64,000 nt of DNA from contig JAUFOQ010000010.1 in the NCBI GenBank assembly GCA_040285855.1, positions 1,426,001 through 1,490,000 of the forward strand, read 5' to 3'. Below the pieces are notes generated by a model that was given only the letters and a program-made list of their open reading frames with translations, was not told the origin of the DNA and did not search any database. Every line of letters starts with the position of its first letter. Positions within the stretch are counted from its first letter, which is position 1. Of this stretch, positions 1,505 to 50,094 are shown one piece after another. The position numbers and the translations under genes are program-made. This stretch comes from Eukaryota sp. GEM-RC1 (taxonomy: Eukaryota).

Positions 1505-3546
1505 TTAAACCATTTTATTAACCCAAATAATAGAATTAGCAAACAACTTGTGTCCTTCAGTTGAACTTGACCAATTCCATCCACCAGAATTAGCATCACT
1601 AGACCCACAAAAGAACCCAAACTCTACAAGTCTACCTCCACCAACTTCTTTCTTTGCAATTAAAGGAATTCCAGAATTAACAGTAGCTAATAGAGTTCCA
1701 TTAACAGACTTTTGAGTTTGAAAACCACAGTTAGTAGAAAAACTGTTTACATTAAGAAAAATAGGATCATTTGATAGAGTTTTTACCATGTCAAGTTGAG
1801 TTTGTCCGTTAAGATAGTTACCATCACCACCACCATTGAAACAAGAATTACTAAATCCTCCTTGGATATTACTTGGCCAACAATTAAACAAAACAAAACC
1901 CTTGCCTTGGTTTAAAAACTGGTCAAGAAATTGACCTGGACAAGGACAACAATGACTTTCAACAACTAAAACATCATAGTTTTCAAGTTCTTCAAAGCTT
2001 TGAACTTTACTGGTGAATGAATTAATTGAAAGATTAACAGTTTTCCAATTTCCAGCAAAACCTTTTTTAATTTTTTCAGTGAGATCCTGAATATGATAAG
2101 TCGAAAAAACTCCAACATTAATTCTTAAAGAAATCTCTCTACCCAAGAATTTTCTACCAATTACTTGAATTTCATCTCCAATAAGATTTTTAAGAATAAC
2201 TTTTTCCAACCAAATTTCTCTGTTTTGATTTGAAGCATTATCTAAATTGATTCTTGATAATAAATTACCAGGAATAACTGGAATTTCAGGAACACTTTCG
2301 AAAGAGAAATTATTGATAACATTTGACAACAATTCTACATTGGAATGTTCAATAAAAGTACCAACAAGAGCAAGAAATTCTTCTTCAGTTGGTGAATTAA
2401 ACTCTAGTTTTTCAAACATTAAATTGGTTAATTCAGAGTTAAGTTCTTTAATCCAATTAAATTGAGATATTGAAATAGGTTGAGAGTTATTGATGAAATT
2501 ATTGAATAAATTGAGTTTCAATTCATGAGGAATTTCAATTACCACGAGTTCTTGTAATTCTGAGAAATTGATAGAAAAATCATCAGAAATTTGAGCAATT
2601 GTTAATATTTCCTTGGATTTTGAAGACACATCAAACATATCAACATCAACGAAATCTTTCTTCACCAATCTGGACAACAATTTCAAATGAAAAGACTTTG
2701 CATTTTCTTCAATGAATTCAAAGCTTTCATTAAATGATTGTTGAAAGCTTTTAAAACCTCTACAACATTTTCAATAAACTCATTGCCTTTTTCTCTCAAC
2801 TCTTTGTCAAAAGCTAGAGCACAACTCACGGTATTTCCAGTACCAAGATCAACAATCTTTTGAGATGATTCTCTAACCAAGTTGTTGATCAAATCATAAA
2901 GAATTGTCTGAGTATTGACAAGAACTTCAGCAACAACCTTTTCTACTTCTTCTTTATTTCCAGAGACTTTCGAAGTTGCGTTGGACAAAGAGAGGTGGAG
3001 CTCTTTGACTTGGAGTTCAAAGTCCTCTTTGGCTTGTGAAAGAGGAATTAATTCCTCACAGTGTTTAGCGTGACCCATTAAAAGTCCACATGAGTCACAT
3101 ATGGATACCAAACACTTGGTACAGAAGTGTTCGAGAGGTTTAGAGGGGTGGCGAGGGCATTTGGAAGAAGAGATGTTGGGTTTTTGGTTGAGAGGAACAA
3201 CTGAGTGGGATCGGAATAGCTTAGGTTTATGAGCAGCGGTTGAACAATCACTACAAAGGACGGCGTCACAGTCACCACAGAAAAGAGTGGCGGGAGCTTC
3301 TTCACATTCAAAACAGATGGGCGCATCTTGCTTTGAGTTTTTAGCAATTTCAATAGCTTCTCGCAAAGCGATGTTTACACGGAGAGGAGATGAAGGTATT
3401 GGTTCCCGGCAAACGGGACAAGAAGCCACTTCTTTCTGTTTTAACCATTGCACAAGACATTTGTCACGGCAAAAGCTGTGACCACATAGAAGCGTTGTGG
3501 GATTCTCCATTAGTTCTTCACAAACAGAACATTCAAGATGAGACAT
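1505..3546 (-). CDS. TRIM-like E3 ligase: RING + two B-boxes + coiled coil + C-terminal alpha/beta domain (one frameshift at ~2690)
   Basis: C3HC4 RING (CSVC...CGHSFC...CPVC), B-box1 (CFECEEAPATLFCGDCDAVLCSDC...H), B-box2 (CPRH...FCTKC...CDSC...H..H), then a helical segment. ORFs 2683-3546 and 1505-2686 fuse if one T is added to the CTTTTCA run (QSLF-HLKLL). Confidence 0.85.
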
Positions 3547-8859: not shown

Positions 8860-9210
8860 ACTACTCTTCCAAATACTTATTGCTTCCCTTCCGATTGTTT
8901 CTGCAACAACCTCCATTCTCTGCAAAGAGACAACCTTCTTACTGATACTGTCATCACTTACGATGGCAACTCTTTCCACTGTCATTCCTTCGTCGTCAGT
9001 GCTTTCAGTCCTGTTCTTAAGGAGAAGTGTCTGGAATCTACCACAATAGAGTTCCATGTACTTCCTTTTCTTACAGATCCTGAAATCTTCTTCTGAGTTC
9101 TGTCCACTCTCTATGGTCAATCTCTTACTGTTACTCCAGAAAATGTTACATGTGTCTCTGTCATTGCTTTTCTTCTTCAGTTTCAAGAGTTAACTGAGTT
9201 TGTTGTATAG
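8860..9210 (+). pseudogene. 5' fragment (first BTB region) of the BTB-SEL1 family
   Basis: Matches the reverse complement of ~43300-43650 (LPNTYCFPSDCFCNNLHSLQRDNLLTDT...YGQSLTVTPENV...LLQFQEL); truncated at both ends. Confidence 0.85.
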
Positions 9211-11039: not shown

Positions 11040-13634
11040 CTAAATGTTGCTCTGTTTTAAAAGAACAGAATTTCCTCGTAAATCACTCTCAGAAACAGAT
11101 GAGTTATGTAACAAGGCTTCACCTAAAGCAATTGCTCCGTTGTCAGTAATAAAATTAGACTCAAGAATAATCTTGGTAACTGAAGAATTGACTTTAAACG
11201 CATCAGCCAAAGCTACTGCTCCTTCATTATCAATAGAATTGCACCGTAAAGCAATCGTAGTTAGGGGAGGAATTCTGCTTTAACGCCTCACTCAAAGCCA
11301 ATGTACTCTTAACTCCCATAGAATTGCTACCAAAATTAATTGATGAAAGGGCTGATGATCCTATATTCAAGGCTTGTATGATCTGTGACAAGGCTACGTC
11401 AGACAGTCCACACTCACTGAAGTCAACAGAAGTCAAGGAAGTATTGGTCTTGATCAAATCACATAAGGAAGTGATTGTATCATTAGAAAATCGAAATCGG
11501 GTAAGTGTTAGTGCTTTCATTATGAAACACTGGAAAAAACACTTCAATGCTGAAACAGTAGTAGTATTCATTTGAATTATTTTATAAGGACGAAACAAAA
11601 GCACTCCTTTGTCGACGTCAACTTGATGTGGATGAAGGTCAGTAAAGATCACTGATTTGCTCACAGAAATGATCTGTAATAAACGAATAATGTCATCATT
11701 ACTGTCAAGACTTGATCCTCGACATTCTACACGTTTTATAGGGATCTTTGATTGTAAGGCAGTTAAAAGTGATGATACATCATTGCTTTGAATCATGTCA
11801 ATATAAGAAATTGATCGAGTAATTAGGTCAATTGAATATGGGGGAATTCTAACAGATATTAAGGAACTGCTGGTTGATAAAATTTCAAACAATGTAATAA
11901 GGTCTTGTAAACAACTACAACTACAATCACGACATTCTACACGTTTAATAGGAGTGTTTGATTGAGAAGCTCTAACAAGTAAAGAAGAAACAGTGGAAAT
12001 ACAATTGCGATCTTCATGACAAATAACTCCAAGAGAAACATCAATCGAATGAGGAGAAAGATTAATGTTTGTAGTTAATTTACCAGCTGAAACTAGTTCA
12101 AAAATGGTGAACATAACATTAAGTGTAATACTAGTAGAACAATTACTTAAGTTGATCTTTTTTAAATTTGTGTTGAACTGTAGAGCACTGAGTAAGTTCG
12201 AGAATTGATGATATAGTGAACAGGACGAATATTGGTTGTAAGTAATGAAATCGTCATCAGAAGAGCTTTGGTAATTGCTACACCAATAATCATCAAAGGA
12301 TCTTCACGATCAAGGTGATCGTAACAATGACAGATAACAGGAGATGATTCATTGTCAGTCAAGTAATCATAACAATTACAGAGAACACTTTCAAAATCGT
12401 AATTAGGTATATACAGTCTGGTAGTTTCAATGTAACTGAAGTCAACAGAAGTCAAAGTATCATTGTTCTTAATTAACTCACACAAAAGAATGAATGCATC
12501 ATGGGCAAACCCACAGTCTTTAAGTGTAAGGTCTTTGATACATACAGAGTCCAAAAAGGACTGTAGAAACGTCACGTCTTTAGCTTCAATCTGACTGCAC
12601 GATTGTGGATCACCAGCGAATGACAGCACACCATTTTTAAAATCAAAGATATGAGGATCAAAATCAATAGAGCATGTTATATTGCTATTACATACAGTTT
12701 CACAGTCACGTACGAAAGAACGCAAACGTTTACGACTAGAGGGCAAAATGACTTTCCGGAGTGTTGAACTCTTTTCCAGAGCTTCAACTAATTTTTTAAA
12801 TTGTGATGGCCTAATCTCGAATCCATCCAATTTTAGAATCACTAATGATGTATTATTCCGCAAAATGTTCCCTAACGCCTCGATTTCTTCGTCGTTATAA
12901 GATTGATTACCAACGAGATGTAGTTCTGCTAAAAACCTGTTGGACTCAAGAGATTTAAAAATTGATGAAGACGATAATGGGGATAAACTTCTACTGAAAA
13001 CGTCACAATTGCGAAACGAATAATTGTACGGTAGAATTGAAATTTTAATAATATTGTTGTTTAATAGCGGAACCACTGTATTATGATCACGAAGACGCAC
13101 ATCTGATAAATCAACTTCTTGAATGGAGTTACAGTTAGCAAGTGCATTTATCATTTGAATCCACGATTGATCTTCGAAGGAGGAATCTGATCCAGCAATG
13201 GAAACCTTCCTTAAATGACATTTACTTGAGGAAAAAATTTCAGTGATTAGATTCACTTGTTTGTTTGAACATGCATAAACATTGAGATCGTGCAAAGTTG
13301 GGCTTTCAAGTACATATCTGGCAGTGACCTCGTTAAAGTTTGGATTGGTACCACTGTAACTGTAACTCATAGGTCTAATAGAGAGTGTTCGAAGATCGGG
13401 TAAGAAAAGAGGATCAGAAGGATTGAAGAAGTTATGAGAATATAGGCATTCACTGTCAAGACTAATTGCACGGATAATTGGGGTGAATGGAACAAGATCA
13501 GAACAATTGAACCGGTTAATGACATTTAACTCAATGGAATATAAACGAGTATTGAAAAAAGAAGCAATGTCGGAAAGTTTGAGAACGTTGTCTGGGTAAA
13601 CTTTGAATGTTTTGCTCTCAAAATAGGTTTGAAT
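11040..13634 (-). pseudogene. 3' part of an RI-like LRR gene interrupted by the retrotransposon
   Basis: LRR motifs (LTSVDFSECGLSD, INFGSNSMGVKSTLALSEALKQNSS, VTKIILESNFITDNGAIALGEAL). The frame stays open upstream of 13370 up to the TSD. Homopolymer frameshifts near 12297 and 11265; 3' end approximate. Confidence 0.85.
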
Positions 13635-13700
13635 TGTTGTCTGTAGACATGGAAGAAGGTAAAGTAAATTTATTTTAAGGGTACTGTACCAGTACTAACA
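13635..13700 (-). repeat. 3' LTR (66 bp)
   Basis: TGTTAGTACTGG...CAGACAACA on the minus strand; contains AATAAA; flanked by TSD GAAT at 13631-13634. Confidence 0.95.
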
Positions 13701-13719
13701 CTACTTTTTCCCCTTTCTC
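13701..13719 (-). other. Polypurine tract overlapping the end of the integrase ORF
   Basis: GAGAAAGGGGAAAAAGTAG immediately 5' of the 3' LTR; encodes RKGKK-stop. Confidence 0.85.
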
Positions 13720-16700
13720 GAGGACCTGGTCCTCTTGGCAGGTGGAGAGGCACGACTGGTACTACCCTGAACACTTCGTTTCTTTCTAGTAGACGGTTTA
13801 TATGAGGGATTAGATTTAATAAACTCAGAATAGGCTTTCGTATTCTTTATTTGATCTAAAGGTACCTCGGTGGTGTCGCCATCGAACCAGACGACTGAAC
13901 AAACAGGTCCGGAGGGTGAGTCGGATTGGGACAGTACCTTAATCACGATCATTTCCTCAGAGTCACAGGATGCTACTGCTTTGTGGAACTCATCAGACGA
14001 GGGTTTGTCAGTGAGGTATTTCTTACATTGGTGAACACTAGATTTGAACTGATGTCCAGTGATAATGTTCTGTAAGGTAAGAGAGCTGGCAGTGGGAGTG
14101 TCGATGACCAGGAATGGACCTTCGAGCTTGCCGTGAAGCTTCTTAGTTTTGGAGTTAGTCTTGAGGACTAAGTCTCCACTCGAGTACAGGGACGACGAGG
14201 TTGGTTCGGCAGTTATCACGGGTTGGGTGGAAGATTGGTTGATCTCTGCCTCTTCCCGGTTTTTCAAAATTCTTTGAATTTTTGATTGATAATCTGCCAG
14301 GAAGAAATCTTCTGATTGGCTTTCCCGCGAGAGACAAGCTAGGATCTTGCTAGGGTCGCTACCAGGGCTGGTGGCTGATCCGAACATGAGTTGGTATGGG
14401 GTGAAACCTGTCACTCTGCTCTTAGTTGTGTTAACTAACAGTTGTACAATTGGAATGTACTTGGACCAGTTGTCGTAATCATTAAAATCGATAAGCATCT
14501 TTCTTAATGACTGCAGGGTGTCTCTGTGGCGACGTTCCACTAATCCGTTGCTTTGCGAAAAACTGGGGATGGATTTCTCCGTATCAATATCAAAAGCCTG
14601 ACACACGCCATTAAAGACATGGTTGGCAAACTCCTTACCATTATCGCTATGAATCAGATGGGGTATACCAAAGATGGCACATACATTACACACTAGTGCA
14701 TGAGCGGTTTCTTGGGCATTGAGCTCCTTCAGGGGACATAAGACTGTATAACGGGTAAACGAGTCTATGAAAACGAGAAGGTGACAGTTCCCGGAGGTAT
14801 CTGTCGGCAAAGGTCCGATGGTGTCGGCATTCATTTTGGCAAATGGTTTGTCAGCCCAAAGGTTACCTGATGGTTTGATTTTGAGTTTTGCAAGGGGGAG
14901 CTGTCTTTTGACAAGCTGGACATTGCATGCAGTGTTTCTTCATATCTTTGGCCATCTTAGGCCAGAAATAGTCACTAGAGTTTAGCCGATCAATGCTGAC
15001 TCTTAGGCTGGGGTGGCCTGCGTGAGGAAAACCGTGGATGTGGTTCATCGTGGTGTTCCGAAGACTCATAGGTATGAGTATCTTACCATCGCTATTTAGG
15101 AATAGCTGGAGCTCGTCGTTGTATACAGCAGTGGGATGCTGGAACAGTACGTCGTTGTTGTTCTTGGCTTCTACTTGTGTGGAGCGTATCTTCGATAGCC
15201 AAGCGTCAAAAATTTTTGACTTGTTGATTAATGGTTCACTAATTGATGGTTCACTAATCATGTTGATTGACTCGGAGGTCAGTGATTGATATTCCATGTC
15301 GTCATCAGTACGACATAGTCCATCGATTCTAGAGAGCATCGGCTCGGGGCAAGATGTGACTAGGTTTATGTTTTCGGGTTGAGAGGTTTCAATGTTTCGA
15401 GATAACATGTCTGCCCAGTAGTTGTCTGCTCCAACAGTGTGGATCACTGAGAATTGGAATTCGCTTAGGATAGGTATCCAACGCTTGACTACTCTGTTTT
15501 TCTCAGGTGCTGAGATGAGGAAAGCTAGGTTTCTATGATCTGTGAAGATGGTTAAATCCCTACTTAGGAGAAATGATGACATGGGGGATTCCGTTAGGAT
15601 CAGGACAATAGCGTACAACTCTTTCTGAATTGTTGCCCAGTTTTGTTGAGATTCCGTTAGGAGTTTGCTGTAGAAAGCTAGTGGAATAACTTTCCTGTTG
15701 TTCAATGGGGTTCCATCTTGTGCGTTAGGAGGTATTTCCTGCCAAATGACACCACCTACGGCGATATCACTGGCGTCTGCACTAATCAGCACGCGTTGGT
15801 CCCTGTCTGGTAGACTGAGAGGCATGTGATTGATGATCTTATTTCTGATTGTCTCAAAATTAGATTGATGGAGAGGTGTCCATTTTACTGAACGAGCGTT
15901 GTTCTTGACTAAGTTTATGATTGGAGCCAGAAGGTCTGACGCACCTGGAATAAAAGTCTTTTATGTAGTTAATCGAACCCACGAAGCTACGAACTTCTTT
16001 GATTGTGGTTGGTATGGGCAACTCTAGGAGAGCTGTGATACGCGATGGGTCAATACTGCGTGTATTGTTAACGAACTTACTGCCCAAGATCTTTAGTGGG
16101 TGTTTCTTTGTCACAACGTGGCATTTTGGTAGGCCAAGGTTGACTCTACGTGTTAATGCTTTAGTCAGAACGAATCGGATTCGGCTCATGAATTCTTCGA
16201 ATGTACGGCCTACTATGATGATGTCATCGATGTAGATGAATATGCCCTCATGGTCGAATATTTCATACATCAAATTTTGAAATATCGCAGGGACGTTCTT
16301 GAGTCCAAAACAAGCTCTTTTAAATCGGATGGCTTTGCCAGGGATTACTAGAGTTGTCTTGTCTCTGTCCTTTTCTGCGAGGTTCAATTGCCAGAAGGCT
16401 TTCGGAAGATCTAAGGTCGCTATGAAGTTAGCTTCACTCAGAAATTCCAAGATGTCGATGATCTTTGGAAGATTCGGTTCGACAACTCGGGTCAATGCGT
16501 TGATTCCATCGGAACCACTGAAGTCTCCCGTAAGGCGGGGCTTACGTTGATCGGGATAGACCACCAGTACTACCGGTGAACTGAACTGTCCGTTGGGAGT
16601 TGTTAACTCAGCAAAGTCCTGTCGGACGAGTTCATCAAAAATCTCTTCGGCAATCCGTTGTTTCATTGGATTGAGCCGTCGAGGTTTCCGTCTCACAGTG

Positions 16701-19700
16701 GACTCTTCATTGTAGAAGTCGATCGCCATGGGAGGACAATCGATGCCGTCTTTGTGAGGAGCTGTTGAAAATATTGAGGAAAACTCCTGAAGCAGGCTCA
16801 ATAGGCTCTTAGTTCTGTTATCATCATCTAGTTTGATTGTGCAACCTGAATCGAATACATGTTTATTAAAGTCTACAATGTTATCAATAGAATGGCTACG
16901 GGGAGGTTGTATGATACGTGAGTCGAACTCAGACTCATCGTTCACGGTGGCCAGGATGGCCTTGTCAATCCGGATGACTAGTCCGTCTTCGGTCAGTAGT
17001 CCTAACTGTTTCATCAGATCGATTCCCAATAATAGTTTGTTGGATCCGGGTATTATTGGTAACGTCTTATCCACGTGTGTCAGGTACGCGATACTACTGG
17101 TATCGAAGGTCAAGATGCCCTGGGCGCTACCCAAGGACCGGGACTCGACATTGTTAGCGGAGGTGAAGCGAACATTTTTGTTGACAGGCGTCATGTTACC
17201 AGGTCTTGTGTGATGACGGACATGGTTGCTCCACTGTCCCAAAAACCTTGAACCGGAATTCCGTTAATCATCAGTTTGCAGCTGAGAAGAGGGAGTGGGT
17301 TCTGACTACTTATGCTGAATATGGAATTCAGGCTTTGTGAGTTCGTATTACCATTGGCGGAACTGATGTTGCTCAATGGGTTTAAGAATTGATTGGATTC
17401 AATCAAAATGGGATTTGATTGATTAGATGTGATGTTGTCAGATATATCTACAAGGCTGTTAATATGTACTGAATTTGCATTGAAATATTTAGATTTTTTA
17501 TTAGACGAGTGTTTCTTGCTATGACTACGAGATGGTTTTAAGGCGGTACTCTTTGCATTGCGTTGTTCTAAAGGAAGTTCACTACGTTTACATTCGGGAT
17601 CCGGGCATTGGAGGATGGAATGGCCCTTTTCGCCACAAAATCTACAGGCGTCAGGGTCTTTCTCTGCAGATCGAGGCTTCTTCGAGGGTGGCTTGGAGCT
17701 GGATGCCGATCTACGAGATCTACCGGGTTCACTAGACTGAACCGGGATGAGGGGACGAGAAGTCCATGATTTGGGGAGGTCTTCCCAAGTAGCTGTATCT
17801 CTAAGATGAGCTATCTCGGCAATTCGTTGTTCGTTCTGCACGTTGGCTGGAGCAGATTTCCATCTCTCGCACCAAGTGTCATAACGTTCTTTGACTTCGA
17901 AGATTAATCCTTGGATATCCGGAGAATCTTGGTAGAGAGGCCAACATTCAATCCAGATGGATACGATGCCTAAGTTTGACAGAATAGCTTTAACAATGGC
18001 TTTGTCTGGTAACGCAGTCATTGGCTTATTCTTCGGCTTTATGGCCTGGGTTCTTTGTAGAACGCGGTGCAACCGTGATATGAAATCACTCCATCGCTCT
18101 TCAGGGTCTGTGATGGACCACTTCATCTTGATCTTGTTCAGCTCATTCAAGGCAGTGGTCTCGTCTGGGAACTGAGTACGCTTGAGGAGAGCTAACCATA
18201 GGGTGAGAGGGTTCTTACCATCCCACTCCTTTGCATAGACAGCTGGGTCTGTAAGTCGAACTTCACAAAGCGTTGGATGTAAGAAGGATCAGCGTGTGCT
18301 GCAGCCGTTCGACAGAAGTCGAAAAAATGTCTTGGCCATCCGAATGGAGCCCCTACCGGTGTTTTGTGGTTAGGGTCCATCACGCTCCATTGAAGAAAGT
18401 CTTGAGCAAATTCAATGATGTCGTGTGGTTTCAAACTCGAAAGCATCTTTGGTTGAAGCTTGGAGTTCTTCATAGAGTCGAGGGGGACTTTCTGTTGGAA
18501 AGTGACAACACTATGGGACATTGGGGAACGTTGTTCCACAACCGAATTGGAAGCTGACGGAGCCAGGGGGGGGAAGGAGGTCAGTTGAAGGGGAGGTTGA
18601 TGTCGTGCTAAGATCACTCAAGGAGAGACCAAGCTGGTGGACATCAGATGGTGGATTTGATTGATCGGAAGGTGATTGATAAAATTCGGAAATTTCTTTC
18701 ACTTTAGACTTCGGATTTGCATTTGCTCTACGAGCGAGTTCTTCTTCATATTCCACTCGAGCTCGGTATTTCAATGCTGTGGGTTGGATAACCACTTCAT
18801 CAGTCGTGGTTATGGTGCTCTGGATAGCTTCGGGGAGCGGAGAGGAGTTGTGATCTGATGGGCGAATTCTTTTGTCCAAATTCGACTTTTCAAAAGTTCG
18901 ACCTGTCAATACTTCCTGGACCTTTTCCCAGCAATCTTTCACGGGAATCATGGTTTCCGGTATACTAGGGTCCATCAGGATAGTATGGGGTTTTCCTCGG
19001 TCGTCAAGGATGGTGTAAGTTCCTTCAAGGGGGAGAACTTCGTCGTTAAATTGTCTCCTGATCAGTCTTATGGCTGCCTGAGCTGGTCTAGGATAGCGGT
19101 TTCTTAGGTAGTCCGTTCTATCTTTGGCTCCATGAAGAAAATCATGTACCATTTGGCGATCTGATGGGAACATACGATGTTCTACTCGTTTTAGTTCCTC
19201 TTCTGTTAACCCTTGTTGAAAAGGTCCAGGAGGGGCCTGGAATAACTCTGAGGAACCCGTCTTAGTGGACCTGACAGGATAAAACCCTTGGACGGGAATA
19301 ATGGGATGGGGTTGGAACCCTCTCGTATCTGTGACAGGCCTTGACGGCGGAGGTTGAGACGGGTTAGATGGGCCTTTAGCGGGCGTCTGACCAGACTCTT
19401 CATCATCAGATTCGTCGTATTCGCATAGATCTTCTAAGTCAGGGTCCGCGGTGGGAGTGACGTGAGATACTATGGGTGTTTCACCAACATGAGGAACGGT
19501 GTCCTGGGCACGTGGAGTCGACGAGGCATCAACTATGGGAAGTGATGAGGGAACGGTACCCTTCTGAGATTTTTTTAATAGGGGCACTTTTGGAAGTGGC
19601 TTTAGGCAAAGGCTTGGATGGATGGAGACCTAGGTCTCGTTCCGAGGCAAACTTGAACCCCTCTAGTTGCGACGTGGGAGTTGCAAAAGAGGAGAATTGG

Positions 19701-20245
19701 AGAGTAGGAAAAGGCTTGTTCGGAGTTGGAGCTCCGCTGAACATAGCTCTAATCCTCTCGAAGGAAGGATTCGGTGGAGACGAAGTGTCTTTCGGAGGGA
19801 CCATATCTCTCGGAGGAGATAAATCCTGGTAATTAATCTGGACAGTGGAATCTTCCAGGGAGGAGGGGCTCTGAAGAGTGGTACCTTCTGGAGGGCTATC
19901 CTCTTGAATGGTGATTACTTCCTCTTGGGGTTGGGAAGGAAGGGTGGAACCTTCAACCACAGGAATCCTTTGAAGGGCGGGACCTTCTGAGGGAGTTTGC
20001 TGGGTTTGAGGAGTAGGGACGGAACCTGCAACCTCGGAAGTTGCTGGAAGGGCGGAACCTTCAACAGAAGAGGGACTTTGAAGGGCGGAACCTTCTAAAA
20101 GGGATGTAGTTGTTCCTTGGAGGGCGGGACCATCCGAGAAGAAACGACTCATTGTGGGGTCCTGGGACCTTGGTGAGTGCGGGGGCACTCTTTCACAAGG
20201 CGCAGCACCACATGGGACACAATAATTATTGTTGTCTGTAGACAT
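13701..20245 (-). CDS. Gag-Pol polyprotein, probably one ORF split by six single-base indels
   Basis: Zn knuckle CRFCGEKGHSILQC; protease WDSGA; RT LDLPKAFWQL, FGLKNVP, YIDDII; RNase H DASD, KELYAI, TDHRNL, ADMLSR; integrase HHCC (HGFPHAGH..CPAC), DTIGP, SDNGKEF, SNGLVER, GPF motif. Confidence 0.9.
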
Positions 20246-20295
20246 GGGAGAAGGTAAAGTAAATTTATTTTAAGGGTACTGTACCAGTACTAACA
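20230..20295 (-). repeat. 5' LTR (66 bp), containing the polyprotein ATG (20245)
   Basis: Same as the 3' LTR except 20248 G versus 13653 A; flanked by TSD GAAT at 20296-20299. Confidence 0.95.
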
Positions 20296-20593
20296 GAATT
20301 GAGACAAACGCGCATTCAAAGAAGAACTTGTTGACGTAACCGATTCTATGAATGAATTTGACCAATTCATCGAAGACAGTGGAAGGACGAATAGTATCTG
20401 ATCCCAATCAACCATGAGTAAGTAAGTGGACATTGAAAGACAATAATAGAGGTCCTTGTATGAAGATGGTAGAAGAAAGATGAGATGAATCTGATTGAAG
20501 AGAAGATATTGGTGTTGAAACAGCATTTAGATGAGTAGCATAAGTGATTTCAGAGTAGCGATTCTTCTTGAGTGGAGGTTCACTGTGAGACAT
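20296..20593 (-). pseudogene. 5' part of the interrupted LRR gene
   Basis: MSHSEPPLKK...LLTHG*LGSDTIRPSTVFDELVKFIHRIGYVNKFFFECAFVSI joins in frame to QTYFESK beyond 13634. It aligns with the paralog motif SFFKKVGYVSHHFFES. One in-frame TGA at 20408-20410. Confidence 0.85.
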
Positions 20594-23162: not shown

Positions 23163-24677
23163 CTAATAATAGTGTATTTGGACAATGGTATTGCATTTCA
23201 ACGTCTTTGCCAAAGCACTGCGACCGTTTGTCCCAATAAAGTCGATCTTTAGATCAATATTTGTAACTGTAGTGTTAACTTTTAACGCATCTGCCAATGC
23301 TCTAATACCTTCATTTCCAATCCAATTGCTGTCTAGATTAATACTTGTAATTGTGGTATTAACTTTTAACACATCTGCCAAAGCTCTGGCGCCTTCATCT
23401 CCAATAGAGTTGTGGCCCAGATTAACACTTAATAATGTAGTATTAACTTTTAACGCCTTTGACAATGCTCTAATACCATCATTTCCAATACAATTGTGAT
23501 TCAGATCAATACTTGTAACTGTAGTGTTAACTTTTAACGCATCTGCCAAAGCTCTAGCACCTGTATTTACAATAGAGTTGTGTCCCAGATTAACACTTGT
23601 TACTGTAGTATTAACTTTTAACGTCTTTGACAATGCTCTAATACCTTCATTTCCAATACAATTGCTGTCTAGATTAATACTTGTAATTGTGGTATTAACT
23701 TTCAATAGTTCTATAAATGTCATAGAGATAGAACTATGAACATACACGTGAAGCTTCTTAAGACGTGGAAACATCAACGAAGACTTGTTAAGAAACTCCA
23801 AGTCATTGCAATTTGATAATTTCAATTCCAAACCTGAAATTATATTAGAATAATTGAGAAATTCTTCAACTTTAAAGGTCGCGGAATCGTGCAAGAAAAC
23901 AGACTGTATCTTTGCTCCAAAGAAAGAAGCAAATGAACAGAGTTGAGGAAGGAGATTAAAACAAATATGAAACGTGTTTGTACTAAGAAACACATTGGTT
24001 GCTAGTAGAGCTGATTCAAAGAAATGATGGCTTACATAGCCAACTTTCTTGAAGAATGAATGAAGTTCGTTCTTTAAACAAAGGAATCCATGACGAGGTT
24101 CCTCACGATCCCATTCAAGGGAAGACTCACAAAGACTTCTCAACAAGTGAACACTGATGAGAATCAACAAAGACTGTTGGAAGTGTAGGGATCTTAAAGG
24201 AGACTGTAATGAATATGTCAAAGGGAGAAGTTCAAGTGGTTTAGGTTCAGCATTAGGTTTAGAAGAGAAGGTACTAGTATTCAATGGTTTAACAGAAGAC
24301 CGAGGAGTAGAGGCTACATAGGTACGGATAGGGCGGCCATGGATCTTAAACATCCAGTACTTATCTAAACATTGCTTGAGTCCTTGAACATCAAGAAATT
24401 CGACAAAGAACGTACCCGGCATATTACTAGGAGATCGAACTTCTTTAACGGGAAGAGAGGAGAAAGCTTGCCGAATGTCAGCTTCTGTTGCACTGTATGC
24501 AACGTTCACGATTTTGGCAGTGAAGGGGGCTTCAGAGGGAAGTTCATATTCTTGGTGGGATGGACGTAGAGTGAAAATGAGTGGTTCTTCACAAGCTATT
24601 GGATTACAAGAAGATCGAGTAGGTTCACTGTGGAAGGAGGATGTTTCATCAGTTCTTGTTTGAGTATTATGCTTCAT
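23163..24677 (-). CDS. RRM (eIF4B/eIF4H-like) fused to an RI/NLRC3-like LRR protein
   Basis: Intact ORF. RRM PSEAPFTAKIVNVAYSATEADIRQAF...FFVEFLD...IHGRPIRTYVA, family linker FFKKVGYVSHHFFE, then about six 28-aa repeats KVNTTVTSINLxxNxIGNEGxRALxxAL. Confidence 0.88.
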   Translation of the reverse strand: MKHNTQTRTDETSSFHSEPTRSSCNPIACEEPLIFTLRPSHQEYELPSEAPFTAKIVNVAYSATEADIRQAFSSLPVKEVRSPSNMPGTFFVEFLDVQGLKQCLDKYWMFKIHGRPIRTYVASTPRSSVKPLNTSTFSSKPNAEPKPLELLPLTYSLQSPLRSLHFQQSLLILISVHLLRSLCESSLEWDREEPRHGFLCLKNELHSFFKKVGYVSHHFFESALLATNVFLSTNTFHICFNLLPQLCSFASFFGAKIQSVFLHDSATFKVEEFLNYSNIISGLELKLSNCNDLEFLNKSSLMFPRLKKLHVYVHSSISMTFIELLKVNTTITSINLDSNCIGNEGIRALSKTLKVNTTVTSVNLGHNSIVNTGARALADALKVNTTVTSIDLNHNCIGNDGIRALSKALKVNTTLLSVNLGHNSIGDEGARALADVLKVNTTITSINLDSNWIGNEGIRALADALKVNTTVTNIDLKIDFIGTNGRSALAKTLKCNTIVQIHYY

Positions 24678-26480
24678 CAAAGCAACTCAAAACAGGACCA
24701 TTGACAAACCTCAAAGATGGAGATTCCCTTCTTCTGTTGCCTTCAACATCTTATGATGACTCCTCCCCTTTTCATCTATCCTTCACATAACGTCTTGTTA
24801 CACAGATAACGTCATAAGATAGGTCATCACGCTTAAGAACTCTTCAATACCATGATATTCTCTCGCTTAAGTGGTGATTTCGCCCCATCTTCTCTTCAAA
24901 CACGTCTGGAAACCCGTCTGTCCTAGTGTCCTCTGGAATCCATGTATACTTTTCTTTGTTGGGCATCATTTCTATGTAAGTATCTCACTCTCACGTTGTT
25001 TAATTCAATTACTATTACTTTTTTAGTTGTGAATCCACTGATTGTCTCTTTTTCTCTTTCTGTACTCTTACTCCACAGCAACTACTTAGACTTCGGTATC
25101 ACTTCAAATTTACAAATCTTAATTAGACTCTAGTATCTTCTCGGATGTTACTCTTTGAAGGGTTGATGACGTCATCATTAAACAAAGTGGAATGATTTAT
25201 ACTGAAAGTCTCACCATATGTTACAGCAGATGATCTTTTGATCTCTGGTTCTCTTTTTCAAACGTTTGAAATCTTTTGCTCTTCAGTAATCTACTTTAAA
25301 TGTTGGACAAGGTTATTATTTTTTCAGTTTTTTTTTAATAATTTGTAGTAGTTCTATACAGAGATTGAAGAAGCTTCGTCCACTCCGAATTTTCCTTATT
25401 TCAAAAAAAAAAGACCAACCGTCACGTCATTATCTAGTGTGTAGGTAGAATCAGTTGATTTCTTGTCACTTTACTTAGATTCATGGCCATGAAGAATAGT
25501 TAATTATTTTCAAAAAAAACCAAGTTCTTCAATTCAATTAAGGAAATCGAAACGACTATTTTCTGGGCCAGAAAGTAAAGTTTTAGATATTACCTTTCCG
25601 TATCTCATTCAATTGTTTATTGTGGCTGACATTGGGACACTATCCAAAGATAACAAAAGATAATTCAATCCATCTTACATCAAAATAACTTTATGTCTGG
25701 AACTCCTTTGGTAGAATAGCCATTCACAAACCCATACTTGAAAATATTGTTTGCTAACTCACCTTAAATCAAATCATTGATCCGATTTTTGAATCATCCT
25801 AAGATATCTCGGAATCCTCTCTCTCTTAAACGAATTTCTTAATCAACACGTACCGACAAAGACCGTAAGCAACCAATGAGTAATTGGTTTTTGTCAAACA
25901 AGATAGGTACTGGTTCTTTTCTAAAGGAAATGCGGAATAGAACACCTATTGTGCGCTTAGTATAATTATCCCCAGGGAAGACTGTTACTGTCCTTGAAGT
26001 AGGAGCTATGGAGAAGTCATTTTGACGACGTGTTGCAGATCTCACAGAGACGTCAGACGATGTGGAAGTGATAAAAGACATCAAGAGATGATGTATTAGT
26101 TTATGAATAAGGGCTTCGATATTCTGTGAAATATAAATTTCAGTGAAATCATCTGGAATTTTACACAATTGCCTTTTTGCCCCATATGATTCCATTCTAT
26201 TGGACCTTTTTTATACTTTAATTTTTAGTGATTCTATTTGGTAGAAGAAGGAACTTCTTCTACTCCGAATCTCCTTTTTCTTCTATCTTCTTGATTTCAA
26301 ACACTACTTTTGAATTTCTTTATTGTATCATGTTGGAGATTTCGAGTTGAATCTAGGTGGAGTACGTGATAAACACATACAAAGTTTAAAGACCAACCGA
26401 GAATACTTCCACCATTTCATACTTCTCTTCTTGGTATTATTCTTGAAAATATTTAAATAACAATGGATTATGATATGATA

Positions 26481-29150: not shown

Positions 29151-29848
29151 GTATTTCCCATCTATGTTTATGAACGTAACAAGAATCAAACAAAATTGTT
29201 GTAAATCCCTAAAAAAGTACCAAATTACTAAAAATATGAATACTTCTTGATTTGGAAATCATTTGTTTTAGAACTACAGTTTACACTCTGAATAGTGACA
29301 CCCCAGCGGCTGTCACTATATAGAGGGAAAGAAATCGTGCGTCCACTATACGAATGTATGAGCTTTACTGCTGATAGTATAAAATTGCTGATACTATTGT
29401 ACCAACTGTGGGCCTTTTGATCCTATCAGTAGTATTACAACTGGAAAGGAGGACGAGAAATATATTAAAGAGATCTCGGAGGGTGGTAGAATGAGGATGA
29501 TACCGAAGGGGAAGGCATACATGGACATAATGAGAAGACAAACATTAAAATGATGGGTAGAGAACACAATGAGGACTGTAGGACATCCAACACGTCGCAA
29601 ATCAGAAAAGCTGATGTGAGCTTTTGATGGGAAACAACGAGCAAACACAGCATTCTTCAATCCCTTTTAGTTATGGAGTATATCGTATGGATTGATTTGG
29701 GTCTTCTCCTCACCTTTCTAGTTTGTTTGAATTAGTACAAACATCAGTTGAAGAGACATCTATAATCACATGGTAGAAAGGAAACATCACACCATCACAT
29801 GTCTCGTGTGAGGTTCTTTTGTAATAAGAAGTAACTCAGTGAAAGAAC

Positions 29849-32800
29849 ATGTTCATTCCATTTCCTTTGTCTATGGATGAACTTCTACTCAAATCGTTTT
29901 CAAGGCAGTTTTACAGTGGTACTAGTATTATATCGACGAGCCCTTCCCCCTTTATAAGAATCCCATCACTCCTTCAATGTTCTTCTTCCAAACACATCCT
30001 TCTCCAACATTCCTTGTTGCTATCGATAAAGACTCATTACTTCAGACGTCTTTTACAACCTTCCTTTAAAGTCTCACTGTCTATTTCGAACTCTGATGAT
30101 TATGATGATGATTCAAATCTTCAAGAGGATCTCCTCTCATTCTTTAGAAAAGTTGGCTTTGTGAGCCATCGCTTCTTTGAAATAGCCACTGTCGCAGTCA
30201 CAGTCTTTTCGAGAATAACACATTTGATGTTGATTTCAACAATCTTCCACAACTCTCTTCAACCGCTTCCTTATTTGGAGCTAAGCTTCGATATGTTTCT
30301 TTGACAATGACAGGGTATCTTAAAGCAACAGACATTCTTGAGTTTAGTTCAGTTATTACTCATTTAAAAACTGCAGATTGCTACTTCGTACACCTACTGA
30401 ATCAGTCTGTTTTGTTGCCATGTCTGCGAGTTCTTGATATTTCCTTTTATGAATCTAGGTTCTCGAGAACCCCTCCCTCTAATGAATCATTTACTTCCTT
30501 TTGTGAATATCTAATGGTTAACACTACTGTTAAAGAATTAAATATTGATTTCGGCCTTCTCAGTAGACCGAAAGCTAGTGTATTTGCAGCAGTGTTTCAT
30601 TCAAATCGCTCACTACAGAAATTGTCTTTGTGTGCTGGAGAATATGAAAATCACGAATGTCTGTTGTTGATCACTACATCTGCAAAAAATGCTGGAATTG
30701 CAGAAATTGATCTGTCTAAACTTTTGGTAACATCTCCAAATTGTATTCTTCCACTTCTGCAGAGCTCTAGTCTCAGAAGTATTGCTCTAACACGCTACTG
30801 TGATTTTAGCCCTATAGTTTTTAATGCTTTTAAGTTCAATGCATCTCTTAGAGAGGTTTCGTTTTTTCATCTTCAACGTCTGATCCAGTACGTTATAGCG
30901 AAGATCTTGCTGATTTCTTCAAATCTAACACTGCGTTAAAGAAAATAACAATATGCGAACATGTGGAGTCTGGGTCTAATTTATTTTCACTGATTTTCAA
31001 CTCTCTTGATTCTGATAGTTCTCTATTAGAATTAATAATTAAGACGACACAATCATTCACAGATCAAGATGTTCAAGCATTATGCAACATGTTACAGATG
31101 AATACCAGACTACGTGTTTTGAGCTTTACTGGTAAACAAGTTTCTTTTTCGCAGTTTAACAGCTTGTTGAAAGCACTTGTATACAACAGAAATTTGAACA
31201 GAGTCATTTGTAATTTCCTAGACATTAGTTGTTTAATTTCGCTTTACAAAGCAGTGGTCGTGAACAACTATTGTTTTTCATTTGATGTTTCACCTCATTA
31301 TATTAACACCAATACTGTTGTGTTTACATGTGACGGTTTTGATGAATTTGAAGTTCTTATATCAGTAACATTGACTGATGTATTGTTTTTACAGTCTTTT
31401 TGCAGTGTCACAATATCAATGAGCTTACTCTTAAAGGATACCGTTTTGGAGCTAAAGAAATAGCTGCATTATGTGACTTATTGAGATCCAACAAGTGTTT
31501 GACTTCAGTTGACTTCAGTTATTGTCAGTTTTCTGATGAAGATTTGTTTGATTCATATGAACGATATAGATCGTCCTTCATTCATGACGACTCATTGAAT
31601 TTAGTTAATGCATTTCAGTTCAGTTGTTTAGAAAAGATCAATCTCAGTCATAGTTCAATTGGATTCAAAAGTCTTTTGACAATCATGGAACTGGTTACAG
31701 CTCATAAGTTATCACAAAATATTGATGTTTGTCCACATTCCATCGATTTTACTCTTGGTACTATTCACTATGACAATTTGATCGACAATGATGATTTAGT
31801 ATCACTCTTGAACGCTTTACAGTTAAGTGTTTTTGTAACACGTGTGGAATGTCATGGTTGGGAAAATCCAAGTTTAGAAGATCTTACTCTTTATTTGGAA
31901 ATTCGATCTATTAACAAATCAGTGATAGATCTTGATGTTTCTAATGATATAATTGACTTAGAGAAGGGTGTGTTTTGTCCCCGTCTTATTGAACATTTTT
32001 ATTTCTTCATCCTTTGTTGAATTATTGTCAGATCAAAATACTTAAGGTAAATTGTTGTTTTACAGATGAAACATTCTGTATTTTATGTGATTTAATTAGA
32101 GATAGTAAACTTCTGAATTCTGTTGACTTGTCCAGGTGTGTGCTATCTGATAACAACTTCTCAAAAGTAATATCATTACTACAATTCAACTCTTGTTTAA
32201 GTAAAATCGACCTTAGCGATAGTATGATTGGATTCAAAAGTATATTAAGCATTTACGTACTAATTTCTGGTGGTAGGTTGACTCCAAATATTCAAATTTC
32301 TCCTCATTGTGTTGACATTGAAAATGGTTTGTTTTGTTTTTCACCAAAACAATCAATTCACATATGCACTGAAGCAGTTTCATATCTCGAGGTTTTTCTC
32401 AATTCTTTCAGTATCAAAGATCTTACTCTTAGAAAATGTTGTTTCACTGACAAAGCGACCACTGCTTTGTGCAGTTTAATCAGTAACAACAGTACTTTAA
32501 CATCGATTGAATTCAGTGAATGGAATATGTCTGGGAAAAAATTCCAGAAAATAATCAATTGCTTACAATTCATTTCTAACTTAACAAGTATCAATCTCAG
32601 TAATAATGGCATTGTGCTCCAAAATCTTTTAAATATCCTGGAATTGGTTTCAACCCATATGTTACCGCCAAACATTGACGTTTCTCCGCATTCCATCGAC
32701 TTTTCCATTGGTTCTATTTACTATGATAATGAGATTTTTAGTGATGATTTATCCGCAGTTCTATTTGCTTTGAAATCAAATATTCCTATTAACCGTGTGG

Positions 32801-35800
32801 AATCTCATGGGTTGAGTAGTTTAAATCTACAAGGCCTTATTACATTGTTTGAAATTCTTTCAATTAACAAATCAGTAATCGATTTGTATAGTTCGTATAA
32901 TTCTTATCTCCTTGAAAAGGTAAGCTTACTACCTGGTTTCCCGATACATATCCTATAACATTAGATACATTTTCTCCACATTCTATTAACATTGTAGATG
33001 GTGTTCTTTGTTTTTCACCAAAAAAATCTGTCCGAGTAACTACTGAAGAAATGTCTTCATTACGATCACTTTTGATTTGTTCTAGTATCACAGAGCTTAC
33101 TCTGAGTCGGTGTCGTTTTTCTGATGAATTATTTAATATTTTGTGTGATTCAATCATGGTAAATAATTCATTGACTTTTATTGACTTCAGTTACATTGGA
33201 CTTGTCAACGTTTTTCATTTAGAACTTATAATTCTACACAACTATCCGATCAACAACTTTCGAAATTAATCAATGCACTTAGTTCCAAGTCTCATCTAAG
33301 AAGCGTTGATCTCAGTCATTCCCTAGGTTCAATTGGATTTAATATTGTTTTGACTTTCTTTGAACTTATTTCAGCTGCAAAATTAACACCAAATTTTAAA
33401 ATTGCTCCTCATTTCATCGATGTTTTTCTTGGTACTGTTCGTTATGAAAATTTTATAGGTAATAATGATTTAGTCTCACTTTTAACTGCGTTAAAGTCAG
33501 ATGTTCCTATCAAAAGTGTAAAATGTCATGGATTTAGAAGTTTAACTCTTAAAGGACTTGTTACTCTATTTGAAATTCGTTCTATCAACCAGTCGGTGAT
33601 AGATGTTGATGTGTTTCCTCATTCTATTGATCTTGAAAACGATGTATTTTCTTTTGTCCAGAAAGACCTACTGCGGTAGCTGTTGATGAAATATTATCTC
33701 TAAAGCGTCTATTGAAGAGTTTTAGTATTAAAAACCTTACTCTGAATCGGTGTTGTTTTTCTGATGAATCATTTTATGTTTTGTGTGATTTACTTAGTGT
33801 AAATAGTTCACTGACTTCTTTAGACTTCAGTGACTGTGGTTTAAGTGACCCTTATTTTTTGGATATTATTTCTGTAATTCAACCCCATTGTTGTCTAAAG
33901 AAACTCAATTTCAGTTGTAATTTTATAGGACTGGACGGTTTTGTGACTGTTTCTAAACTTGTCGTAGCAGGAAAGATTTCAAATAATCTTCAAATTTCCC
34001 CACATTTTTTAGATGTTAAAGATGGTGTGTTTTCATTTTCACCCGAAACTTTAACTGAAATATGTGGTCAAGACGTATCATCTTTGTGTTCCTTGTTTAA
34101 GCATCTAAGTGTCAAAAATCTTGTTCTTAAACGGTGTCTTTTTTCTGAAGAAGTCATCGTCGTTTTGTGTGATTTAATCAGGGAGTGTATTTCCTTGACT
34201 TCTATTGACTTCAGTTTCAGTGATTTTTGTGATGATCAGTTTTCGCAATTAGTCAGCTCACTTCAGTTTCAATCTGGTTTAACACAAGTTAATCTCAGTA
34301 GTTCCTCAATTAGATTCAATTCTCTTCTGACCGTCTTTGAATTGGTTTCAGCGAGAAAATTAACACCAAATGTTAGAGTTTTTCCACATTCTATTGATAT
34401 CTCCCTTGGTTCTGTGAGTTACAAACATGTGTTTGAACAGAGTGATTCTATTTCATTGTTAAATGCTTTAAAGTCAAATATCCTTATTAAACGTGTTGAA
34501 TGTCGTGGATTGAGAAGTTTACGGTTACGGAGATTTATTGATTTGTTTGAACTTTTTTCCATCAGTAAGTCAGTGTTAGATCTTGATATTTCTCCTCATT
34601 CGATTGACGTTGAAAGTGGTGTGTTCTGTTTTAATCCTGTTAATTCCGTACAATTAACAGGTGAAGAATTTCTTTCTGTCCAGTCTTTCTGGAAAAGTTA
34701 TACCATCAAACAGCTTACTCTCAAGAATTGCGATTTTACTAAGGACGCGTTCACTGGTTTGTGTGATTTACTCAACGTCACTACTTCTTTGACTCTTATA
34801 GACATCAGTAATTGTGATTTGACATGTGAACAAATCTCTCAAGTAATTTGTTTGATGCACTTGAGTTTTCGGTTGGAAGCAGTCAATTTAAGCAATAATT
34901 TCATTACACTTCAAAATCTGTTACACATTTTTGAACTGTTTACGTCTGCTGAAAAAATACCAAATTTTACTGTTTATCCTCATGATATTGATTTTTCTAC
35001 AGCTTCGATTCTTTATAGCTGTGAAGTTGACAATTATGATTTAATTTCACTTTTAAATGCAATGAAGTCTAATATCCCAATTAACCGTGTTTTCTGTCAT
35101 CCATTAAGCCGTCCAAGTCTCCAAGAACTTATTACTTTATTTGAAGTTCTTTCCGTTAACAAATTTGTGTTAGTTCTTCCTCATTCTTCTCGTCGTAGAC
35201 TTAGCGACTATGAGTTTTATGAGGATTTTATAGATATCGACTACGGGACAATTCATTGTGATAATATGATTGAAAACAGTGATTTAAGTGCACTTTTGAA
35301 AGCCTTAAAATCAAGTGTCCCTATTAAACATGTTGAATGTCGTGGATTGAAAAGACCAAGTCTGGAAGGACTTATTGCTTTGAATGAAATTCTTTCCATC
35401 AACAAATCAGTAATAGGTAAAAAAATTTCAAAAATCAGATATAACCTCGATGTTGAAAATGGTGTGTTCTGTTTCTCACCAAAATTCATAAATTATAGAA
35501 TCAACCATGGGATATTGCATGGAATAGGGCATGGATTTTGTAGGTCGATCACTAGAAGTGGCCTGACAGCGGACACTGTCTCGTTTTTCTCTCAGTTTTT
35601 GGAGTTGTATCGTATGAAAACATTTATTCTTAAGAAATGTCGTTTAAATTTTAAAACAATAACTGCTTTATGTGATTTGCTCAAGGAAAATCACTGGTTG
35701 ACCTCTATTGATTTCAGCAGTTGTAATCTATCAGGTTATGATGCAGTAAGATTAGCTACTGCTGTTCAGTCTAACCTTCATCTAAAACTTTCAATGATTA

Positions 35801-35961
35801 ATCTACAGAATAATTCTATTGGTAACATGGACGCTTTCACAGTGGTTGATACTTTGAAATTCTGTACTAGTGTTACTAACATTGATCTGCGATATAACTT
35901 TATTGATTCAAACACCAAACAGCTCATTAAAAGAATCTTAAATAATCGTGTCACATGTTGA
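29849..35961 (+). CDS. Large (~2000 aa) RI-like LRR protein with composite tandem modules; several frameshifts
   Basis: Consecutive ORFs share motifs LTLxxCxF, LCDLIxxNxxLTSxDFS, SPHxID, ALKSNIPIKRVEC, GVFCFSP, plus the family motif FFRKVGFVSHRFFE. Breaks at ~30206, ~30865, ~31398 and ~33655 are repaired by adding one T. Confidence 0.85.
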
Positions 35962-50092: not shown

Positions 50093-50094
50093 AT

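What the first reader, a model, noticed from the sequence alone, without database searches (positions are those of the whole stretch)
23163..24677. LRR receptor-like protein with an integrated eIF4B/4H-like RRM
Seen: an intact ORF with an RRM at ~24312-24539 placed before the family linker. The two paralogs here have no such domain at that position. Known: the pattern P..PP(Y/F)TA...N..Y..TE..I..F..L....VR...F.(A/V)EF.D...L...GR.IR..VA typifies eIF4B/eIF4H RRMs, and plant NLRs acquire integrated decoy copies of pathogen-targeted host proteins. Inference: a captured translation-factor domain acting as bait or RNA sensor. No NTPase domain is visible, so this is not a canonical NLR.
Basis: partly seen in the sequence, partly recalled or inferred. 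Interest (0 to 1): 0.7.

Follow-up and report, generated by a model that had tools for sequence, protein, structure and literature searches.

The report
Translation-factor domain captured by LRR family
An intact gene, likely from a free-living protist, carries a domain copied from the cell's own likely translation factor eIF4B in front of leucine-rich repeats; at least twelve complete gene copies share this fusion, and the borrowed domain likely acts as protein-binding bait on an adaptor that would tag its catch for destruction.

Summary
ORF 24677-23163 (-) is intact (504 aa): an eIF4B/4H-type RRM (24548-24312), a conserved helical linker, and ribonuclease-inhibitor-type LRRs. All named relatives come from Eukaryota sp. 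GEM-RC1 (Skoliomonas, a free-living metamonad). The donor is visible: the genome's likely eIF4B (P0019, 57% identical over the RRM) and three stray duplicates. One fusion still keeps the first eIF4B repeat at the junction. The fusion founded a subfamily of at least 12 complete and 7 truncated or partial RRM+linker genes on 5 contigs, so it is no misassembly. The RRM fold is conserved beyond neutral expectation, but most RNA-stacking residues are absent and the helix-2 face is nearly invariant, which favours protein bait over RNA sensor. There is no transmembrane helix or NTPase, so 'receptor-like' and NLR fail. The linker resembles a degenerate F-box with a 25-residue insertion, but this is a lead only: profile tests were not significant. 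Other members carry RING, Cys-rich or SWIM modules instead. Best reading: a ubiquitin-ligase-type adaptor with captured bait (0.4). Transcription, dN/dS and immune function are untested.

The parts
23163..24677 (-). Intact, intronless ORF, 504 aa (P0001): RRM - helical linker - RI-type LRR
24549..24650 (-). Disordered N-terminal flank (aa ~10-43); its last part aligns with the stretch of host eIF4B just before the RRM; fast-evolving among paralogs
   Evidence: tblastn of P0019 aa 78-192 to 24596-24249, 51% identity, E 1e-31; tree length 3.96 against 1.43 for the RRM
24312..24548 (-). eIF4B/4H-type RRM (aa 44-122) captured from the host eIF4B lineage
24201..24311 (-). Ser/Pro-rich spacer (aa 123-159) containing the fusion junction (about aa 130-133, inferred): eIF4B-derived up to there, then like the Ser-rich leaders of RRM-less paralogs
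   Evidence: P0013 keeps the first eIF4B repeat at this point
23982..24200 (-). Conserved three-helix family linker (aa 160-232) with a hypervariable loop at aa 188-203; possible degenerate F-box with an insertion (lead only)
23703..23981 (-). Irregular beta-alpha repeats continuing the LRR solenoid (aa 233-325)
23166..23702 (-). About six 28-residue ribonuclease-inhibitor/NOD2-type LRRs (84-nt period)
   Evidence: Z 26.2, rmsd 4.7, 266 aligned to ribonuclease inhibitor
24639..25245 (.). Upstream region plus the first 13 codons; a 74% identical copy lies inverted at 49486-50092 (likely promoter/5' stub of the subfamily)
29843..35961 (+). Paralog with linker and long LRR array, in several frames, no RRM
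11064..20461 (-). Paralog without RRM whose linker is split by an LTR retroelement at 13633-20294

Best explanation
The gene is a fusion of an RRM copied from the host's likely eIF4B onto a member of a large lineage-specific LRR family, amplified to at least 12 complete copies; the protein likely works as a cytosolic ubiquitin-ligase-type adaptor in which the RRM would act as protein-binding bait. Shown: the anatomy, the donor lineage, the amplification and the constraint on the fold. Inferred step 1: eIF4B sheds partial duplicates, and one landed at the 5' end of an LRR gene. It lost the eIF4B N-terminal domain and repeats, which are the ribosome-binding parts in yeast, and kept the RRM. Inferred step 2: the RRM's invariant helix-2 face binds whatever binds eIF4B there, either an initiation-factor partner or a parasite protein that hijacks it. 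Inferred step 3: the helical linker is a degenerate F-box (about 0.45) that recruits Skp1-cullin, so the bound protein is ubiquitinated, while the variable LRRs supply a second, diversifying binding surface.
For: Donor: P0019 has the eIF4B layout (basic N-terminus, RRM, W-R-G repeats, charged tail). Its top Atlas structure hit and third feature hit are eIF4B clusters (lead level). Profiles of the family rank eIF4H/eIF4B first in the PDB (E 5e-7; E 1e-6 with the top four rows all eIF4H/4B). The only non-family protein seen among the 150 listed hits from 1.84 billion is an eIF4B/4H-type protein (P0167). Fused and free host RRMs group together against it at 100/100. One fusion event is not rejected (AU p 0.28 on the RRM; 0.68 on the linker). 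Constraint: sites invariant in three free copies vary less in fused copies (p 0.001), and at most 1 of 400 neutral simulations matched this at any of four scales. Protein face over RNA face: K101, Q102, D105 and W108 are kept in 16, 16, 17 and 17 of 17 copies. Adaptor: the linker is conserved in 169 proteins and sits directly before the LRRs. The two halves of an F-box profile score best as an ordered pair at aa 166 and 215, the register noted beforehand. F-box clusters fill 6 of 10 Atlas feature rows and 3 of 10 structure rows (TM 0.50-0.53). Three members carry a Sina-type RING at the same N-terminal position. BTB-Sel1 and RING-B-box genes share the window.
Against: F-box membership is not established. 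There was no Pfam F-box match in 126 proteins at E 0.02 or 16 at E 10, and none among the 25 families shown for 40 members. hhalign was not significant (probability under 1%), and 38 of 300 column shuffles reached the pair score. Pro occurs at the second motif position in only 20 of 153 members, and the L-to-V spacing is 49 against 23-29 in the reference F-boxes. The Atlas feature hits to F-box clusters score under 0.9. Giardia, in the sister group, lacks Skp1 and Cullin1 (PMC7029713, passage), and I could not look for them in this genome. The disordered spacer is nearly as conserved as the RRM (tree length 1.68 against 1.43), so recent spread or gene conversion explains part of the RRM's high identity. 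The conservative-substitution test is borderline for the RRM (p 0.059). Nine of 21 fused-type copies are truncated or partial. No partner, parasite or transcript was seen.
Confidence: 0.4

Rival explanations
1. Passenger of a birth-death family: an eIF4B fragment fell into a rapidly duplicating LRR array and spread with it. The fold is kept mainly because a misfolded N-terminus would destabilise the protein, and it has no binding job.
For: The genome sheds eIF4B fragments (P0002, P0020, P0053). A transposase-type SWIM also sits in front of one member. 9 of 21 fused-type copies are partial or truncated, and P0015 and P0027 keep linker and LRRs with the RRM half or mostly lost. The spacer is as conserved as the RRM. 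Plant lineage-specific F-box genes are often weakly selected and unexpressed (PMC3030570, abstract).
Against: Surface residues on helix 2 are nearly invariant, not only the core. The N-terminal flank captured with the RRM diverged about three times faster. Twelve complete copies keep the whole domain.
Confidence: 0.25
2. Targeting module: the RRM takes the LRR protein to mRNA, 40S ribosomes or stress granules, where the LRR acts on translation components or foreign RNA-protein complexes.
For: The RNP1 position-5 aromatic is kept in 17 of 17 fused copies, while the free copies vary there. The human eIF4B RRM organises initiation machinery in stress granules (bioRxiv 10.64898/2026.08.26.747272, abstract).
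Against: RNP2-2 and RNP1-3 aromatics are absent; position 55 is Glu in 6 of 17 copies and Arg115 varies in 5 of 17. In yeast, 40S binding rests on the N-terminal domain and repeats (PMC8762332, passages), which the fusion lost.
Confidence: 0.2
3. NTPase-less integrated-decoy sensor: the RRM is hit by a parasite factor, the LRR senses the change, and the linker signals to a separate executioner rather than to a ligase.
For: The LRRs are of the RI/NOD type. The genes are clustered and diverse, with swapped N-terminal modules. A viral shut-off nuclease binds eIF4H directly (PMC6070287, passages), so this protein class is a known viral target.
Against: There is no Walker A in the 169 linker-bearing proteins and no death-fold domain in Pfam. 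One member of 40 had a weak TIR hit (E 0.003), not followed up. No head-to-head helper gene is visible next to the ORF.
Confidence: 0.15

Closest known systems
eIF4B / eIF4H RRM
   Same: Sequence signature, fold and best PDB matches (2dng, 2j76, 1wi8); 57% identical to the host's likely eIF4B over the RRM
   Different: Lacks the eIF4B N-terminal domain, repeats and tail; two of three RNA-stacking aromatics are missing; fused to LRRs in many copies
F-box/LRR proteins (FBXL, SCF substrate adaptors), including the expanded families of nematodes and plants
   Same: Low-complexity leader, short three-helix module, then LRRs; lineage-specific birth-death expansion; motif-like hydrophobic spacing
   Different: No profile match; Gln for Pro in most members; about 25 extra residues inside the module; 28-residue RI-type repeats; an extra captured RRM in front
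Plant NLRs with integrated domains (integrated decoy model)
   Same: A copy of a host housekeeping domain fused into a diversifying, clustered LRR family
   Different: No NB-ARC/NACHT NTPase, no coiled-coil or TIR output domain, unicellular host, no known pathogen
Ribonuclease inhibitor / NOD2 / NLRP LRR solenoids
   Same: Fold of aa 230-504 (Z 24-26)
   Different: Only the solenoid is shared; a shared fold shows no function

Membership tests
eIF4B/4H-type RRM | RRM fold and Pfam RRM_1 above cut-off | tested here: met
   22.8 bits against 20.7; beta-alpha-beta-beta-alpha-beta topology in the model
eIF4B/4H-type RRM | eIF4H/4B are the nearest known RRMs | tested here: met
   Profiles rank eIF4H/4B first. 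With the single sequence a four-RRM nucleolin chain ranks first by summed score, but eIF4H has the best single-domain score (28.2 against 19.3 bits)
eIF4B/4H-type RRM | Descent from the host's own eIF4B lineage | tested here: met
   Fused and free host RRMs group 100/100 against P0167; junction intermediate P0013. Only one outgroup protein, so the root inside the clade is unreliable
eIF4B/4H-type RRM | Canonical RNP2/RNP1 RNA-stacking aromatics (positions recalled) | tested here: not met
   1 of 3 kept in the fused copies, 0 of 3 in P0019, 3 of 3 in P0167
eIF4B (full factor) | N-terminal domain, repeat region and C-terminal domain around the RRM | tested here: not met
   Absent from P0001; present in P0019 (layout from PMC8762332)
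NLR | STAND NTPase (NB-ARC/NACHT) | tested here: not met
   No Pfam hit; no Walker A in 169 linker-bearing proteins
NLR | C-terminal LRR solenoid | tested here: met
LRR receptor-like protein | Signal peptide and transmembrane helix | tested here: not met
   Maximum 19-residue hydropathy 1.43, polar N-terminus; no dedicated signal-peptide predictor was run
F-box/LRR protein | Profile match to an F-box family | tested here: not met
   No Pfam F-box hit; hhalign against 30 viral F-box segments not significant
F-box/LRR protein | F-box motif pattern and register ahead of the LRRs | tested here: inconclusive
   Best ordered placement at the predicted positions 166 and 215, and half 1 ranks first of 489 windows; but 38 of 300 shuffles score as high and the spacing is 49 against 23-29
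F-box/LRR protein | Three-helix F-box fold | tested here: inconclusive
   Three helices predicted, the first two at pLDDT about 63-69; Atlas TM 0.50-0.53 to F-box clusters
F-box/LRR protein | Binds the host's Skp1; host has Skp1 and Cullin1 | not testable with these tools
   No genome held; host Skp1 not retrieved
Integrated decoy | The domain is bound or modified by a pathogen factor, and this triggers defence | not testable with these tools
   No pathogen of this organism was identified; needs experiments

The most novel reading that the evidence does not exclude
Integrated-decoy immunity in a free-living single-celled eukaryote, built without an NLR: cryptic F-box/LRR adaptors carry a captured eIF4B RRM as bait, so viral or endosymbiont proteins that grab the translation-initiation machinery are caught and ubiquitinated; the RING and Cys-rich modules on sister subfamilies are further captured parts.
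Probability: 0.2. Interest if true: 0.8.

Novelty: new variant of a known kind. Interest (0 to 1): 0.52.

Why it matters
Little is known about how free-living protists recognise intracellular parasites. Here the capture of a housekeeping domain by a diversifying LRR family can be followed step by step in one genome: donor, stray duplicates, a junction intermediate and an amplified subfamily. If the RRM is bait, integrated decoys reach beyond plant NLRs into an anaerobic metamonad, and the bait names the host process under attack, translation initiation. If the linker is a cryptic F-box, a family of at least 169 'hypothetical' proteins becomes a ubiquitin-adaptor expansion in a group whose best-studied relative lacks SCF. 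If it is drift, it remains a clean example of domain capture in a gene-family nursery.

Tried and rejected
Sequencing runs: none was listed, which says nothing about expression. Complex prediction of the linker with a stand-in Skp1 from a giant-virus contig: no verdict (scores 0.35, 0.05, 0.02; alignments not used, controls not folded). Fold searches of the linker model: Foldseek found no match at E 0.001; VIA-align gave a best Z of 6.6 to TIM-barrel enolases and generic helical hairpins, with no F-box chain among the 50 rows shown; both are inconclusive. hhalign after removing the variable loop, done post hoc, was still not significant. Swapping of the RRM among distant paralogs, suggested by the scattered quick tree, was not needed: one clade was not rejected. 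Misassembly was rejected (many divergent copies, five contigs). Earlier scan notes: three look-ups, nothing. Literature: ten searches; none of the listed titles or abstract openings describes this family. The genome paper's preprint text has no 'leucine-rich', 'LRR', 'Skp1' or 'ubiquitin'. Five of its six listed supplements were searched with no hit for F-box, eIF4B, Skp1, cullin or leucine-rich; one scanned file and one oversized PDF were not seen. A review that I wanted for the F-box consensus was not held, so the motif is recalled plus the 30 segments.

Full report
Observation. The frame 24677-23163 (-) is open for 504 residues. Pfam gives RRM_1 at aa 58-118 above its cut-off and five LRR_6 stretches. 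The LRRs repeat every 84 nt and fold like ribonuclease inhibitor and NOD2. The AlphaFold model shows an RRM at aa 52-121, a disordered spacer, three helices at about 160-233 and a solenoid to the end. An RRM profile over six frames finds only this RRM in the window; the two paralogs have the linker alone. There is no transmembrane segment.

Organism. All 14 hits of the RRM search (of 40 candidates) and all 37 hits of the linker search (of 502) are named Eukaryota sp. GEM-RC1. Of 15 further representatives whose names I looked up, 14 are too. The genome paper treats this organism as Skoliomonas sp. GEM-RC, a free-living anaerobic metamonad assembled from long reads (bioRxiv 10.1101/2023.05.03.539051; passages and section 5). 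That the window comes from this organism is inferred from these relatives. I could not check whether other skoliomonad proteomes are in the collections, so restriction to this species is not shown.

Identity and donor of the RRM. Profiles place eIF4H and eIF4B first in the PDB. The single sequence gives eIF4H the best single-domain score, though a four-RRM nucleolin chain ranks first overall. P0019 has the eIF4B layout: a basic N-terminus, the RRM, three W-R-G repeats and a charged tail. It matches the yeast four-domain scheme (PMC8762332, passages), and the Atlas points to eIF4B at lead level. It aligns to window 24596-24249 at 51% identity, E 1e-31. Three further free copies exist: P0002, a tandem chimera; P0020, two locus numbers from the fused gene P0018; and P0053. 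P0013 is a fusion that still carries the first eIF4B repeat before the linker, an apparent intermediate. In a tree of 24 RRMs, the 17 fused and 5 free host sequences group 100/100 against the two RRMs of P0167, a metagenome eIF4B/4H-type protein. One origin of the fusion is not rejected (AU p 0.28). With one outgroup protein the direction inside the clade is not shown by the tree; it rests on the full-length layout of P0019 and on P0013.

Size of the subfamily. Of 176 fetched proteins, 150 have the linker only, 19 have RRM plus linker and 7 have the RRM only. By architecture: 12 complete RRM-linker-LRR, 5 with a whole RRM but truncated before the LRRs, 2 with a partial RRM plus linker and LRRs, 2 fused-type fragments, 4 free eIF4B-like, and P0167. 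RRM+linker genes lie on five contigs, most on one. These are cluster representatives, and only 150 of 219 hits were listed, so the counts are lower bounds. Truncations may be decay or long-read indels; I cannot tell which. On the linker tree the RRM-bearing genes are clustered (5 changes against 11 in shuffles) and one clade is not rejected (p 0.68; 38 of 40 rows, P0009 and P0013 dropped as short).

Is the RRM constrained? It is the slowest region: tree length 1.36 against 2.3-3.3 for linker, cap and LRR in 10 full-length genes (P0010, P0015, P0018 left out). In a second set of 10, the N-terminal flank captured with it is about three times faster (3.96 against 1.43), but the disordered spacer is almost as slow (1.68), so overall identity alone does not prove selection. 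Site patterns do better. The 41 sites invariant in three free copies vary less among fused copies than the other 38 (p 0.001). Neutral codon simulation on the RRM tree reproduced this contrast in at most 1 of 400 runs per scale (13 fused rows). The core-versus-surface contrast in the same call used positions I chose after seeing the alignment. The conservative-substitution test was borderline (p 0.059). The fold is therefore constrained, moderately.

Which face matters? Two of three canonical RNA-stacking aromatics (positions recalled) are absent, and P0019 itself lacks all three. Position 55 is Lys in 10, Glu in 6 and Gln in 1 of 17 fused copies; Arg115 varies in 5 of 17. Helix-2 surface residues K101, Q102, D105 and the following W108 are shared with all free copies and kept in 16-17 of 17. 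The RNP1-5 aromatic is kept in all 17. This favours a protein-binding surface but leaves some RNA contact possible. eIF4H is bound directly by a herpesviral shut-off nuclease (PMC6070287, passages), which shows that this class can be a viral target; nothing ties that to this organism.

The linker. Across 153 members it reads as helix, hypervariable loop, helix, then a conserved V-G-Y-V-S-x-x-F-F turn. The hydrophobic spacing of the first helix and the V-S-x-x-F end resemble the two ends of an F-box (recalled; noted). The Atlas returns F-box clusters below its thresholds. Against a profile of 30 viral F-box segments, which were themselves selected by motif, the best ordered pair of half-matches falls at the predicted positions 166 and 215, and half 1 ranks first of 489 windows. 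However, 38 of 300 shuffles score as high, half 2 alone ranks third, and hhalign finds nothing. Pro is present in 20 of 153 and the spacing needs 25 extra residues. Pfam gives no F-box hit. Giardia lacks Skp1 and Cullin1 (PMC7029713, passage). I put the F-box reading at about 0.45 and do not file the protein as a member.

Other N-terminal modules. Among 141 RRM-less members with a complete linker start, the median leader is 45 residues, mostly Ser/Pro-rich. Three carry a weak Sina-type RING match (P0036, P0037, P0135), ten carry a Cys-rich module with no significant Pfam match that looks MYND/HIT-like by eye (recalled), and one carries a SWIM finger. The N-terminus is thus a slot that takes up modules, and the RRM is the one with an identified host donor. 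No Walker A motif occurs in any of the 169 linker-bearing proteins.

Mechanism. Shown: anatomy, donor lineage, amplification, fold constraint, and the absence of membrane and NTPase parts. Inferred: a cytosolic adaptor in which the RRM's helical face baits an eIF4B-binding protein, the linker recruits a ubiquitin ligase and the LRRs diversify (0.40). Rivals: passenger of a birth-death family (0.25), RNA or ribosome targeting (0.20), NTPase-less decoy sensor (0.15). Expanded F-box families are read as adaptive in nematodes (PMC8120010, abstract) and partly as drift in plants (PMC3030570, abstract); both readings apply here. The integrated-domain idea for plant NLRs was seen in passages of PMC7145615.

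Verdict. This is a real, lineage-specific domain capture with a traceable history. None of my ten literature searches listed a description of it, and supplements that I could not read may bear on that. It is a new variant of a known kind, with its function unproven. Interest 0.52.

Noticed in passing
window 13633-20294: Ty3/gypsy-type retroelement (gag, protease, RT, RNase H, integrase; minus strand, many frame breaks) bounded by direct repeats of only 66-68 bp (98.5% identical, TG...CA ends, GAAT target duplication, purine tract beside one repeat). These are unusually short LTRs. It splits the linker of an LRR paralog.
   Followed up: partly
window 49486-50092: Inverted 74% copy of the RRM gene's upstream region and first 13 codons, abutting a BTB-gene fragment: an orphan 5' stub.
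   Followed up: partly
window 41300-62900: Three tandem BTB...Sel1-repeat genes at 83-87% identity plus fragments at 8864-9204 and 50093-50848; likely cullin-3-type adaptors.
   Followed up: no
window 1505-3546: RING-B-box-coiled-coil (TRIM-like) gene followed by an ORF with no Pfam match above cut-off.
   Followed up: no
P0019 and P0002, P0020, P0053 (not in the window): The likely host eIF4B has lost all three canonical RNA-stacking aromatics and sheds partial duplicates; the fused copies are slightly closer to an outside eIF4B/4H RRM (P0001 34-35%, P0019 29-31%).
   Followed up: partly
P0089, P0097, P0100, P0102, P0105, P0118, P0124, P0140, P0155, P0162: A second subfamily with an unnamed N-terminal Cys-rich module before the same linker.
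   Followed up: partly
window 45712-46599 and 57899-58453: ORF remnants that look like Mutator-type transposase pieces by eye; no Pfam match.
   Followed up: no
alignment A3 (one of 40 members): One weak TIR match (E 0.003); member and position not determined.
   Followed up: no
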